Assembly: GCA_964016885.1 (NCBI GenBank)
Contig: OZ024741.1
Span: 227,478,001 to 227,542,000 of the forward strand
DNA length: 64,000 nucleotides
Source: Eledone cirrhosa
Lineage: Eukaryota
Direction of reading: 5' to 3'
The notes beneath the pieces were generated by a model that was given only the letters and a program-made list of their open reading frames with translations, was not told the DNA's origin and ran no database searches. Position 1 is the stretch's first letter. Every line of letters begins with the position of its first letter. A program made the position numbers and the translations under genes. Positions 17,355 to 57,715 of the stretch are shown piece after piece.

Positions 17355-18305
17355 AACGGAAAAAATTAAACGAAATTCTATTTCTCACTCTTAGTACGGC
17401 TGTTACTTAAATATAAGTATGTATACGTACATACATATATGCATACAGACGTACAGTAGTATGTATATATATATACATACATGCACACATATACATATGT
17501 ACGTATGGATTCACCGAACATTTATTATAATGCTCGGTGTGTTTGTAAACACATGATTGAACGTCTGAAAGTATATACTTTCCTTATGCATATTAACGGC
17601 TGAGTAGCCCAATTTGACAGTGTTGCCAGTGTTGAACAAACGAGCAACGATGGTTGCTAGACACTACGGATTAATACGGTATGTTTGTTTACAAACACAC
17701 CGAGCATTATAATAAATGTTCGGTGAATCCATACGTACATATATATATGTGTGCATGTATGTATATATATATATACATAATACTGTACGTCTGTATACAT
17801 ATATGTATGTACGTATACATACTTATATTTAAGTAACAGCCGTACTAAGAGTGGGAAATGAAATTTCGTTTCATTTTTTCCGTTTATCGTTTTCGGCGCA
17901 CCCGGCCGATTAACCCACTCGATATGCAAATTGGGCTACTCAGCCGTTAATATGCATAAGGAAAGTATATACTTTCAGACGTTCAATCATCTGGCAGGAT
18001 GGCATACATTGCTGACGATAGCTAATAAGCTTGAAACTAGTACAGCGTTCCTTTGTCAGTGTTGAACAAAGGAGCAACGATGGTTGCTAGACACTACGGC
18101 TTAATACGGGATGTTTGTTTACAAACACACCGAGCATTATAATAAATGTTCGGTGAATCCATACGTACATATATATATGTGTGCATGTATGTATATATAT
18201 ATACATACTACTGTACATCGGTATACATATATGTATGTACGTATACATACTTATATTTAAGTAACAGCCGTACTAAGAGTGAGAAATGGAATTTCATTTT
18301 TTCCA
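17355..18305. mobile_element. ~420-430 bp non-coding HHR tandem-repeat family (retrozyme-like), locus 1
   Basis: 1.6 tandem units 17625-18305 plus inverted partial copy 17355-17615; same family at 40395-41482 and 57057-57715. Confidence 0.85.
18006..18048 (+). ncRNA. Minimal HHR
   Basis: ACATTG-CTGACGA-T-AGCT(AATA)AGCT-T-GAAA-CTAG-TA-CAGCGT; palindromic stem III ACTAGT. Confidence 0.8.
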
Positions 18306-18499
18306 TATATATATATATATATGCGGAAACATCTATCATCTACAGTTGAGAGCTGATGAAGGGTTTTTTCTCTTGTTTCGTTCCTATTACCATCTCGAAC
18401 TTTATTTACAGTAACTACACAGCCTGCTTCGTTTCTTGTAATTTTGTATATATATATATACATATATATGTATGGTATGTATATATATATATATATATA

Positions 18500-18790
18500 T
18501 AGGTATTAGGATGGGTGCTCTGAAATAGCGATGTAGACGTGAATGTATGTATAGTATATTTGGCAATATACCGTATGCTTAATTAAAAACAGTTTGAAGA
18601 CCATACGCTATCAGTTTTAAAGTAGTGACTATATCACTTACTTCTTTTCTCCGGCGAAAGAAGGGAGAGAAGCTAACAAACTGTCTGTTACTGGCGATCA
18701 TCAGAGCAACGTACTCCCCGCTTTCGCCGAAGATTATAGAAGCTGGATTCTTATAGAATTCCATTAATAATCAGGAGCTGATTATACAGA
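18500..18790 (-). mobile_element. HHR-family repeat with degraded core; homologues 22238-22500 and 41735-42180
   Basis: Shared AAAGTAGTGACTATRTCACTTACTTC block; CTGATGA retained, GAAA lost. Confidence 0.65.
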
Positions 18791-19328
18791 GCGATATATC
18801 TATATCTATCTATCTATCTATATATATATATATATATATATATATATATATATATATATATATATATATATATATATATATATATATATATATATATACG
18901 TATATATTGCATAATATAGTGTATTCTGTTATCATCCTTATTTACCTACAACCAGCCAGCCAGAAATGTTTTACATCCTGATGATGTGTCTCTGAGAGTC
19001 TCATGTAATTTATTTAGGTACTCTAATATTCCAAACTACCTTATCCATCTGTTTATTTTAATATACCAATAAAAGCTTAATGCAATAAAACATTTAAAAC
19101 TAGAACATAATCGTGTTTTTAATAAATGTCCAGAAGAATGCCTGCCCCGCATATATATGTAAATATATATATATAAGTAAATAAATAAATATATATATAT
19201 ATAACTTATATATATATATACACATATATATATATATAATAAATATATATATATATAACTTATATATATATATATATATATATATGTATATATATATAAG
19301 TTTAGGAATAACCAAAGAGTGTTTTATT

Positions 19329-19375
19329 AGCTAACAGTGTTTCATCCATAACCTATGGCAGGAATCATCAGAGCC
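19329..19375 (-). ncRNA. Type I HHR
   Basis: GGCT-CTGATGA-TTCCTG-CCATA(GGT)TATGG-AT-GAAA-CACTG-TT-AGCT. Confidence 0.7.
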
Positions 19376-55109: not shown

Positions 55110-55275
55110 TGAGCGTGTCCCGTCAGAACCAACCGTTTCTAACTGATCCGCCTGGATCCCCAAGCGAGATCAGCCGAGCTCATGGATGTTATCCAACAGT
55201 CTTTTTCAGGGTCTGCCCCTGGGTCTCCTGCCGGTTGGTTTTGCCCGTAAAATCTGTAATCATTGGACCTGGCAA
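55110..55275 (-). pseudogene. RTE-type LINE 3' remnant; related remnant 59062-59165 followed by (GAA)n
   Basis: QILRAKPTGRRPRGRP*KRLLDNI and QILRAKTTGYRPTRRARARWLDNI. Confidence 0.55.
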
Positions 55276-56653
55276 GAAATAACTGATAAATAGCATTTCC
55301 ATGTAACATTATCGACTTATATAATAGAAAAGTCATATTTCATATTGCAGTCCAAGACATAGGTTTGCTCGATCAGTGCTTACCTGTGGTTAAACAACAA
55401 CCTTCTGGCATCATTAATACAAGACCCTGTTAATTACTTGTATTGCTTTAATTACTTTTGACCATCCCTTCCTTTTAGTTGTATGCATTGACTATCCATT
55501 AATATCCTTGTTTTTTTCCTTAGTAAAGTGGTAAGATATCATTTTTGCGATATTTGACTGTCATTTATAGTTCCCCCAAAGCCTTATTAAAAAAACAGAG
55601 ACGCGGCAAAAACTGTAGGGTACCTGATTAAATATTTAGTTATCCCTCTCTGCAGCTGAATTTTAAATTCCCTAGAAATATTTCTGTTTATATGGTGCTA
55701 GGTCTTTTAATGAACTGAATTTCATATGTAACTGGTAAATATATGAGCCAACAAGGAAGTTCCTTTATCTGCTAGAAGTAGTAATTAAATCTACTTTCGT
55801 TCTATAAAAAAAATGGAAATAATCCTGGTTGTATTATATTGGAATAATAATGGTATAGCCACCACTGGAATGTATTTGATTATAGTTCTGCTCGACGGCG
55901 CTTCCTTGGGGCTAAACAAGACCAGCTCGTAATTATATCATCAACATATTGGAATATATTCATTTATTCTTGAATGTGAATACTTGTGGATCTGGAACTT
56001 CTAAATTCTGAGTTCGATCCCTGCCACGTCATCTTCGCTTTGAATTCTTACAAGATTCCTGAAAGATGTAGCAACTAGTCAAAGCACATCGACTATATAT
56101 AATCGATATAATTAATTATATATAGATTTGAAGGCAGTGGTCAAGCGTGGTCGTAGTCCAATAACTGAAACCTGTAAACGGAAAAAAAGTTTAGTTTGGG
56201 TGTATATGTTTTTATGGCTTAGTCAGAGAAGGGTGGCCATTGGGGTGGAGGAAGAAACCATGTGATATGGATAACCTTTGACCGGCTTGCCAGAATAAGC
56301 TGTCAAATCTTACTCAAATCAAACCTTATTGCATATAAGAAAAAGACGAAGAGATCATGAATGGAATGTCTTTAACATGGTATAGTTTATCATTTCTTTC
56401 CGCTCGCGTTTGTTTGGACGGTATTTTATGTTAAACAGGTTGACAGATTTGGTAAACCATCCGGAAATAAGCATAGTAAACTCGATTGGCTTCTATAGGG
56501 CTTTCAGTTACCTTCCAATCCAATCGCAGGTAAATACCGTGCGAAAGTATATATATATTAAAGAGTTAAACAAGATTCAATGAGTACATCAAAGAATGAG
56601 TTTTACAGTAGATTAGAAGCACTCTACAGTATAATATTTTCCAGAGTTATTAA

Positions 56654-56943
56654 TATTAAAATACAAATATTAATAAAATAGATGTTCTTCTGATCAATTA
56701 AATTTTATTTTACATATTTCAGAGGTACAACAGTACGTCCTCATCAGATAAAATAAAATGATACATGACATACCCTGAGATGTTAAATGGTTTGATTAAA
56801 TCTTAACCATTTAACATCTCAGGGTATGTAATGTATCGTTTTATTTTATCTGATGAGGACGTACTGTTGTACCTCTGAAATGTGTATAATAAAATTTAAT
56901 TGATCACAAGAACATCTATTTTATTAATATTTGTATTTTAATA
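56654..56943. repeat. ~290 bp palindrome with opposed HHRs: 56844-56894 (+, intact) and 56703-56753 (-, U16.1 mutated)
   Basis: TTTTAT-CTGATGA-GGACGTAC(TGTT)GTACCTCT-GAAA-TGTGTA-TA-ATAAAA. Confidence 0.8.
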
Positions 56944-57056
56944 TATATATTATATATATATATATATATATATATAGATAGATAGATAGATATAGATATA
57001 TACATCTCACCCCCTCTCTCTCTCTCTCTCTCTCTATATATATATATATATATATA

Positions 57057-57715
57057 CGGAAAAAATGAAACGAAATTTCATTTCCCACTCTTAGTACGGC
57101 TGTTACTTAAATATAAGTATGTATACGTACATACATATATGTTTACAGACGTACAGTAGTATGTGTATATATATACATACATGCACACATATATATATGT
57201 ACGTATGGATTCACCGAACATTTATTATAATGCCCGGTGTGTTTGTAAACAAACATCCCGTATTAAGCCGTAGTGTCTAGCAACCATCGTTGCTCGTTTG
57301 TTCAATACTGACAAAGGAACACTGTACTAGTTTCAAGCTTATTAGCTATCGTCAGCAACGTATACCTTCCTGCCAGATTGTTGAACGTATATACTTACCT
57401 TATGCATATTAACGGCTGAGTAGCCCAATTTGCATATCGAGTGGGTTAATCGGCCGGGTGCACCGAAAACGATAAACGGAAAAAATGAAACGAAATTTAA
57501 TTTCTCACTCTTAGTACGGCTGTTACTTAAATATAAGTATGTACACGCACGTACATACATATATGTATACAGACGTACAGTAGTATGTATATATATATAC
57601 ATACATGCACACGGTTAATCCATACGTACATATATATATGTGGGCATGTATGTATATATATATACATATTACTGTACGTCTGTATACATATATGTATGTA
57701 CGTGTACATACTTAT
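57057..57715. mobile_element. ~420 bp HHR family, locus 3; HHR at 57319-57361 (-)
   Basis: CGGAAAAAATGAAACG repeated at 57057 and 57477; inverted tail 57618-57715. Confidence 0.85.

What the first reader, a model, noticed from the sequence alone, without database searches (positions are those of the whole stretch)
17355..57715. ~420-nt non-LTR retrozyme family at three loci
Seen: non-coding ~420-430 bp tandem unit with minimal HHR (stem III ACTAGT) at 17.4, 40.4 and 57.1 kb, each as 1.x units plus an inverted partial copy, in at least two subfamilies. Known: animal non-LTR retrozymes are tandem HHR repeats yielding small circRNAs. Inference: an abundant, recently active family (three loci in 64 kb).
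Basis: partly seen in the sequence, partly recalled or inferred. Interest (0 to 1): 0.75.

Follow-up and report, generated by a model that had tools for sequence, protein, structure and literature searches.

The report
Penelope-spread hammerhead retrozyme, three ageing copies
A 420-440-base non-coding repeat with a predicted self-cutting RNA fold occurs about ten thousand times or more in this animal genome and was likely spread by Penelope-type jumping-gene enzymes copying a probably circular RNA from both sides of a DNA break; the three copies here are slightly aged members of a known kind of element.

Summary
Real. Three insertions of a 420/428/440-nt non-coding unit carry a type I hammerhead of canonical build (6-bp helix I plus extension, 4-bp helix II on U·U, palindromic helix III), not the 'minimal' type. 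One 32-nt core has 9,768 exact genomic matches; an ~79%-identical sister subfamily has 8,287. Insertions carry a Penelope-like (PLE) footprint: 3' ends at two sites 59 nt apart, (TA)n targets, scattered 5' ends, head-to-head arms; 30 of 32 classifiable two-armed insertions pair one short with one tailed end. Units within an insertion share a haplotype (7-9% discordant vs 40% between loci); young sister arrays reach 4+15 near-identical units. Best reading: a non-LTR retrozyme copied by a PLE enzyme from both target strands, probably round an RNA circle. Not shown: expression, cleavage, circles, the partner PLE. No window locus has two ribozymes in one arm, so none can release a monomer by itself; the window is far denser than the genome average. 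The scan noted this family before on other DNA (e1-8665316). New member of a known kind.

The parts
17352..18310 (.). Insertion 1 (subfamily A, 428-nt period), two head-to-head arms between (TA)n runs; both outer ends are of the tailed type (an exception, 2 of 32)
17352..17551 (-). Inverted 5'-truncated arm (unit positions 245-444), tailed end at 17352, no ribozyme
17553..17616 (-). Short extra piece (unit positions 56-119) at the arm junction; template jump or deletion (inferred)
17623..18310 (+). Main arm, 1.6 units; begins 10 nt downstream of a ribozyme cut site, so only one ribozyme
17991..18059 (+). Type I hammerhead fold; core 18012-18043 intact, predicted cut after 18042; helix I has an A.C mismatch in this copy
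17923..17976 (+). Octamer-like motif (17923-17932) and TATA-like palindrome (17961-17976) resembling this genome's U6 upstream region; candidate internal promoter (untested)
18168..18256 (+). TA-rich quasi-palindromic stem ending at the short (S) 3'-end site (18256); the 59-nt 'tail' follows
40397..41484 (.). Insertion 2 (subfamily B, 440-nt period): minus arm with short end at 40397, plus arm with tailed end at 41484
40623..40654 (-). Hammerhead core, intact; predicted cut after 40624; A.G mismatch at the third pair of helix I
41169..41200 (+). Hammerhead core with G>A in helix III (palindrome broken); likely inactive
57052..57717 (.). Insertion 3 (subfamily A variant, 420-nt period): minus arm 57052-57612 with tailed end, plus arm 57612-57717 with short end
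57324..57355 (-). Hammerhead core, intact, all six helix I pairs formed; predicted cut after 57325; best local fold (z -2.7)

Best explanation
These are three insertions of a non-coding, hammerhead-carrying repeat (a non-LTR retrozyme) that was likely copied into (TA)n runs by the reverse transcriptase-endonuclease of a Penelope-like element, priming on both cut DNA strands and probably running round a circular RNA monomer. Steps: (1) a multi-unit copy is transcribed, perhaps from an internal snRNA-type promoter (inferred, weak); (2) successive hammerheads cut out a 420-470-nt monomer, probably as a dimeric ribozyme because helix III is a 2-bp palindrome (inferred from PMC4209133, PMC7229834); (3) the monomer is ligated to a circle (inferred); (4) the PLE enzyme nicks both strands of a (TA)n run and each end primes at one of two fixed, TAT-ending sites 59 nt apart (end positions shown; priming inferred from PMC11167929); (5) each cDNA stops at a random place, after 0.1 to 15 units (shown), and the two are joined head to head (shown). 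The three window copies have one ribozyme per arm at most and are likely dead ends.
For: Hammerhead fold: 96.6% of cells paired, third helix I pair occurs as A-U 14, U-G 11, G-U 7, C-G 1 of 36 hand-picked sequences. Non-coding: longest ATG frames differ between four monomers and are not conserved. Circular folds 65-66% paired, z -4.9 to -8.5 against 60 shuffles each. Copy number 9,768 plus 8,287 exact matches, controls 0. 115 of 168 segment 3' ends lie at the two sites; 61 of those 115 are followed at once by (TA)4 and most others within a few bases of the diverged motif (by reading). 30 of 32 classifiable two-armed insertions pair a short with a tailed end, 2 tailed-tailed, 0 short-short, P 2.5e-7; this is the PLE 'tail at one end' with inverted 5'-truncated copy and microsatellite bias (PMC8557442 passages) and matches two RT start sites and cutting and extension of both strands in vitro (PMC11167929). 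In 9 of 23 clean two-armed insertions neither arm is contained in the other, so one is not a fold-back copy of the other. Units inside one insertion disagree at 64/959 (tandem) and 85/964 (opposite arms) polymorphic sites against 40% between loci; rare alleles are shared by opposite arms at 33/521 against 11/1958 in controls. Sister subfamily: 61 full monomers from 20 loci, mean distance 0.19% within an arm, 0.20% between arms, 1.69% between loci; arms of 4.0 and 14.95 units at L268; locus-private alleles in every unit of L272. No 5' end of 169 falls within 5 nt of the cut site (4.3 expected if uniform), so copying runs through the ribozyme junction. Young PLE-like elements with open 849-850-codon frames and 98-99% identical pseudo-LTRs exist in the genome.
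Against: No expression, cleavage or circle was observed. Rfam score far below cut-off. Only one helix I pair changes on both sides, and the alignment was chosen partly by exact match to the core, so core invariance is not evidence of selection. No PLE among the 90 PLE-bearing loci compared shares sequence with the unit, so the partner is unknown. Haplotype sharing can also come from few source loci at a time, gene conversion between arms, or later local duplication: L090 holds a perfect dimer duplication and L005, L011 show local relatedness; L269 switches haplotype within an arm. Pairs counted are not independent. The 5'-end test is biased because most loci were picked by a whole core. No A>G excess that would mark an edited RNA template: private 73 vs 62 T>C (P 0.34), shared 8 vs 4 (P 0.26). 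PMC11167929 found uncut RNA the main substrate in vitro, and in the 2026 preprint only 1 of 9 predicted dimers cleaved. The PLE label for L207 rests on motifs (YRDD, MGS, GIY-YIG-like, Cys cluster); Pfam, NCBIfam and PDB gave no RT match. Much of the fold z-score may come from the TA-rich stem.
Confidence: 0.8

Rival explanations
1. Same element and same PLE enzyme, but the template is an uncut linear multimer transcribed from long master arrays; the ribozyme and circles play no part in spreading.
For: Long homogeneous arrays exist (up to 15 units); uncut RNA was the dominant substrate for a PLE in vitro (PMC11167929); no 5' ends at the cut site; local duplication occurs (L090).
Against: Many loci are internally uniform yet carry their own haplotype, including private alleles in all units (L272, L271, L280), which needs a one-unit bottleneck at or before each insertion. 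Tailed arms do not stop at the short site as twin priming on one linear RNA would predict (their 5' ends are scattered). Helix I keeps pairing across subfamilies.
Confidence: 0.3
2. The unit is only the pseudo-LTR of an autonomous Penelope-like element, left behind by 5' truncation.
For: PLE-type ends and target; retrozymes are related to pLTRs in Xenopus (preprint 10.64898/2026.07.22.740005); 2 of 46 single-armed insertions (both counted at L017 and L047, with a duplicate junction at L047) abut a PLE-like coding fragment.
Against: Upstream of a unit lies another unit, never a shared reading frame (72 of 170 segments exceed one unit). The abutting PLE fragments point the other way, carry their own unrelated ribozyme and share no sequence with the unit; with about 3% PLE-like coding DNA in random stretches such neighbours are expected by chance.
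Confidence: 0.07
3. A DNA-level repeat (MITE-like foldback or dispersed satellite) whose hammerhead is a relic.
For: Long inverted arms and TA-rich palindromes; some arrays grew by local duplication.
Against: Arms are polar: fixed 3' ends, random 5' ends, two different end types on the two sides, more than one unit per arm; a DNA transposon would have matching terminal repeats and a fixed length.
Confidence: 0.03

Closest known systems
Metazoan non-LTR retrozymes (Cervera and de la Pena 2020, PMC7229834; passages and parts 2-4 of 6 read)
   Same: Non-coding 150-450-bp-class tandem unit, GC 36-37%, one canonical type I hammerhead per unit, U.U at the base of helix II as in axolotl HHR_Amex2, short palindromic helix III, self-paired circular fold, thousands of copies, PLEs in the same genome.
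   Different: Mostly 0.5-2.5-unit dispersed insertions rather than long arrays; two head-to-head arms with two fixed end types (the word 'inverted' does not occur in that paper); no definable target duplication in (TA)n; expression and circles not shown here.
Vertebrate non-LTR retrozymes as PLE derivatives (Li, Clavereau and Pollet 2026, bioRxiv 10.64898/2026.07.22.740005; parts 1-3 of 5 read)
   Same: Co-occurrence with PLEs; monomers, dimers and multimers; proposed use of PLE machinery.
   Different: Their link is sequence similarity to pLTRs, which was not found here; the link here is insertion geometry. By their rule (two consecutive units with ribozymes) none of the three window loci counts as active; 17 of 97 sampled insertions do.
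Endonuclease-bearing Penelope-like elements (PMC8557442 passages; PMC11167929 parts 1-2 of 4; PMC4209133 parts 1-2 of 4)
   Same: Partial tandems, inverted 5'-truncated copy, tail at one end, (TA)n preference, hammerhead, two RT start sites.
   Different: No reading frame; tail 59-62 nt rather than 30-40; canonical rather than minimal ribozyme; priming sites end in TAT, matching the target, whereas the anole element primes without homology.
Newt satellite 2 (known here only from passages in PMC7229834 and PMC2220036; the primary paper PMC308520 was not held)
   Same: Hammerhead tandem repeat reported to carry an internal snRNA-type promoter; the unit here has an octamer-like and a TATA-like motif resembling U6 upstream DNA.
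   Different: Promoter function untested; spacing 41 nt against 45-47 in three U6 genes; no likeness to five U2 upstream regions.

Membership tests
Non-LTR retrozyme | Type I hammerhead in each unit | tested here: met
   Core and helices in all four window copies (one mutated) and 115 distinct sequences; Rfam below cut-off
Non-LTR retrozyme | Head-to-tail units of about 150-450 bp, GC below 50% | tested here: met
   420-440 nt, GC 36-37%; sister subfamily 454-546 nt
Non-LTR retrozyme | No protein coding, no LTR/PBS/PPT build | tested here: met
   No conserved frame in four monomers; no LTR layout. PBS and PPT were not searched for separately
Non-LTR retrozyme | Two or more consecutive ribozymes at a locus (competent source) | tested here: not met
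   Not met at the three window loci; met by the family, 17 of 97 insertions and arrays up to 15 units in the sister subfamily. This marks the window copies as inactive, not the family as non-member
Non-LTR retrozyme | Highly self-paired circular fold | tested here: met
   65-66% paired, z -4.9 to -8.5; prediction only, partly driven by the TA-rich stem
Non-LTR retrozyme | Self-cleavage in vitro | not testable with these tools
   Needs transcription assay
Non-LTR retrozyme | Expressed as linear and circular monomer RNA | not testable with these tools
   Needs northern, RNase R or raw RNA reads
Non-LTR retrozyme | Target-site duplication longer than 4 bp when present | tested here: inconclusive
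   Ends merge into (TA)n; 5' flanks of single-armed copies are mostly not (TA)n
Minimal (PLE-type) hammerhead | Long helix II (7-8 bp), short helix I (4-5 bp), little or no helix III | tested here: not met
   Helix II 4 bp, helix I 6 bp plus 9-bp extension, helix III 2 bp (definition)
PLE-mobilised element | Two 3'-end sites with a tail on one arm; inverted 5'-truncated arm; microsatellite target | tested here: met
   115 of 168 ends; 30 of 32 short+tailed; (TA)n flanks
PLE-mobilised element | Sequence shared with the pLTR of an autonomous partner | tested here: inconclusive
   None in 90 PLE-bearing loci of a handful of families; the genome has tens of thousands of PLE candidates, so the sample is small
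Autonomous Penelope-like element | RT plus GIY-YIG reading frame between pLTRs | tested here: not met
   No frame in or shared upstream of the unit

The most novel reading that the evidence does not exclude
The lineage records in genomic DNA a mechanism so far only proposed: two Penelope reverse transcriptases, primed from the two strands of one (TA)n cut at two fixed sites, each running round the same ribozyme-made RNA circle, with the unit supplying its own U6-like promoter, so that a 430-nt sequence is promoter, ribozyme and Penelope substrate at once.
Probability: 0.35. Interest if true: 0.7.

Novelty: new member of a known kind. Interest (0 to 1): 0.4.

Why it matters
Animal retrozymes are known, and PLEs were proposed as their motor from co-occurrence and pLTR similarity. 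Here the insertion geometry (two fixed ends, one on each arm, uniform units within an insertion) points to PLE enzymes directly and gives testable predictions for rolling-circle reverse transcription; the young sister subfamily and intact PLE-like frames in the same genome supply reagents. The three window copies themselves add little: they are older, single-ribozyme copies of a family that the scan has already noted. Five library searches listed no paper on such a family in this kind of genome or on the two-armed geometry in retrozymes; subscription journals, Repbase and supplements were not seen.

Tried and rejected
Sequencing runs: no RNA holder listed; contigs of four runs of unrecorded kind were laid and say nothing on expression; contig ends near the cut site coincide with a common G/T variant at 18045. 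Rfam on the whole window returned only low-complexity microRNA noise in the 150 rows shown of 241. The repeat finder was swamped by (TA)n. Partner hunt: two PLE-like families that abut the unit at L017 and L047 have unrelated ribozymes and 3' ends; L205, L208, L216, L141, L146 and L192 hold separate insertions next to PLEs; rejected as partner evidence since chance neighbours are expected. Fold-back copying of one arm from the other rejected (9 of 23 not nested). L1-style twin priming on one linear RNA rejected (tailed arms do not stop at the short site). A-to-I editing scars not significant in this family. U2-type promoter likeness not found; of eight further readable U6 rows, only three distinct U6 upstream regions carried the motif, while L235, L238, L239, L242 and L243 did not. 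Pol III as the source of full monomers is doubtful because subfamily A has a T6 run inside the tail. One search's architecture part was empty (bad BLAST settings; redone), one search used a mis-registered structure (redone), one search stopped early at L131. One search dropped arms lying wholly in the TA-rich stem, so it filed window locus 3 as single-armed; 3 of 97 insertions at locus edges and 16 of 48 two-armed ones with an unclassifiable end were left out of the 30-of-32 count.
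Full report
Observation. The three loci are in the sequence as described. Each is a pair of head-to-head arms between (TA)n runs: 17352-18310 (period 428), 40397-41484 (period 440, 85-89% identical to the first) and 57052-57717 (period 420). Four hammerhead cores are present; three match a 32-nt core exactly, one (41169-41200) has helix III broken. No arm has two cores. The window is 36% GC and lies in a 3.0-Gb animal-type genome; earlier scan notes call it a cephalopod, which I did not test.

Ribozyme. The fold is type I: helix I of 6 bp extended by 9 more pairs beyond an internal loop, helix II of 4 bp on a U.U pair, helix III of 2 bp with a palindromic loop. On 36 hand-picked sequences 96.6% of 756 cells pair, against 27-42% in slid registers; the third pair of helix I occurs as A-U, U-G, G-U and C-G. 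Only that pair changes on both sides, and many rows were chosen by exact core match, so this supports the fold but does not measure selection. By the definitions in PMC4209133 this is a canonical, not a minimal, hammerhead, and the U.U base recalls axolotl HHR_Amex2, which cleaves better as a dimer (PMC7229834). Rfam's best hit is Hammerhead_HH9 at 17.2 bits, far below its cut-off of 52. Folded as circles, three monomers are 65-66% paired with z of -4.9 to -8.5. No reading frame is conserved.

Abundance and age. The 32-nt core has 9,768 exact matches, control 0; 17 of 34 non-anchor cores were exact, which suggests roughly twice as many in all. Thirty-nine evenly spread 10-kb stretches held two clear loci and one fragment, so the window is several times denser than average. 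Window units differ from the family majority at 1.0-3.4% of near-invariant columns. A sister subfamily, 79% identical, has 8,287 exact matches of a 43-nt motif and is much younger.

Insertion geometry. I mapped 97 insertions from 19 BLAST-picked loci, 64 pattern-picked loci on contig C1 (covering most of the first 100 listed matches), two random loci and the window. Of 168 segment 3' ends, 115 fall at two sites, unit position about 385 (short) and about 444 (tailed), each ending in TAT and running into (TA)n. 5' ends are scattered, none of 169 within 5 nt of the cut site (biased by how loci were picked). Of 48 two-armed insertions, 32 could be classified at both ends: 30 short+tailed, 2 tailed+tailed (window locus 1 is one), none short+short (P 2.5e-7). 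The sister subfamily repeats this, with sites 62 nt apart (L268, L270, L273, L274, L278, L284 and others). Partial tandems, an inverted 5'-truncated copy, a tail at one end and (TA)n bias are the described marks of Penelope-like elements (PMC8557442 passages); a purified PLE protein cuts and extends both target strands and starts at two sites that delimit the tail (PMC11167929). That makes a PLE enzyme the likely motor.

Template. In 9 of 23 clean two-armed insertions neither arm is contained in the other, so both were primed on RNA. Yet units of one insertion share a haplotype: 6.7% and 8.8% discordance at 24 polymorphic sites against 40% between loci, and shared rare alleles 33/521 against 11/1958. 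In the young subfamily 61 monomers differ by 0.19% within arms, 0.20% between arms and 1.69% between loci, one insertion has 4.0 plus 14.95 units, and several have private alleles in every unit. A one-unit bottleneck followed by repeated copying, that is an RNA circle, explains this most simply. It is not proof: few source loci at a time, conversion between arms and later duplication (L090, L005, L011; a haplotype switch in L269) can mimic it, uncut RNA was the main substrate in vitro, and I found no A>G editing excess. I put the circle step at about 0.6 within the overall reading.

Partner and promoter. The genome is rich in PLE-like sequence (52,948 and 27,185 first-look candidates), with young copies carrying 849-850-codon frames and 98-99% identical pseudo-LTRs; their label rests on motifs, as Pfam, NCBIfam and PDB gave no RT match, while a window fragment did match GIY-YIG weakly. 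None of 90 PLE-bearing loci shares sequence with the unit. Two head-to-head contacts with PLE fragments are within chance. The unit holds, in all three subfamilies, an octamer-like motif also found 76-78 nt upstream of three distinct U6 genes of this genome, followed by a TATA-like stretch; chance 0.0004 in shuffles, noticed after the fact. The spacing is 41 nt against 45-47, the TATA-like stretch is also a palindrome, five other U6 rows and five U2 rows lack the motif, and T runs would stop Pol III, so this is a lead only; newt satellite 2 is cited as having an snRNA-type promoter (PMC2220036 passages).

Comparison and verdict. It meets the sequence-level criteria of metazoan non-LTR retrozymes (PMC7229834; preprint 10.64898/2026.07.22.740005); cleavage, expression and circles could not be tested, and the three window loci fail the two-ribozyme criterion for active copies. 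It is not an autonomous PLE. Searches listed nothing on this family or on two-armed retrozyme insertions; supplements and subscription journals were not seen. New member of a known kind; interest 0.4, carried by the mechanistic geometry of the family rather than by these three copies.

Noticed in passing
window 673(-), 2508(-), 8467(+), 10486(-), 16450(+), 19371(-), 22674(-), 25654(+), 42008(+), 52709(+), 56747(-)/56850(+): At least eight other hammerhead-like motifs of different sequence; a similar scan gave 6 in 390 kb of random DNA against 0-1 in shuffles. Many ribozyme-bearing repeat families co-exist.
   Followed up: partly
window 1009-2383, 21231-21797, 46224-46796: Penelope-like coding fragments; the first has a weak GIY-YIG match and lies between 204-nt inverted arms.
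   Followed up: partly
window 5514-6981, 36658-38075, 42876-45244: LINE-type fragments with AP endonuclease and RT matches.
   Followed up: no
window 8677-8814, 40080-40356, 50471-50609, 51540-51637, 58109-58178: Another short non-coding repeat with fold-back arms inserted in (TA)n, directly beside insertions 2 and 3.
   Followed up: no
window 49253-49350: 72%-identical minus-strand match to unit positions 203-297: an older relative.
   Followed up: no
window 50624-51081 / 53855-54312 and 10725-10895 family: A 458-nt inverted pair 2.8 kb apart and a 170-nt repeat with five or more window copies.
   Followed up: no
L205:800-1130: A 61%-identical distant relative of the unit that keeps the octamer-like motif, followed by an inverted U2 snRNA 5' fragment (U2 start compared).
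   Followed up: no
L242, L243: U6 copies that begin directly after (TA)n or (TG)n runs with no promoter: possible PLE-made retrocopies.
   Followed up: no
L090, L269: L090 has an exact dimer duplication inside an aged array; L269 changes haplotype and unit length part-way along one arm (template switch or later duplication).
   Followed up: partly
L047 (G000:C1:18488154-18491185): A head-to-head junction between the unit and a 5'-truncated PLE-like fragment occurs twice in inverted order, 97% identical.
   Followed up: partly
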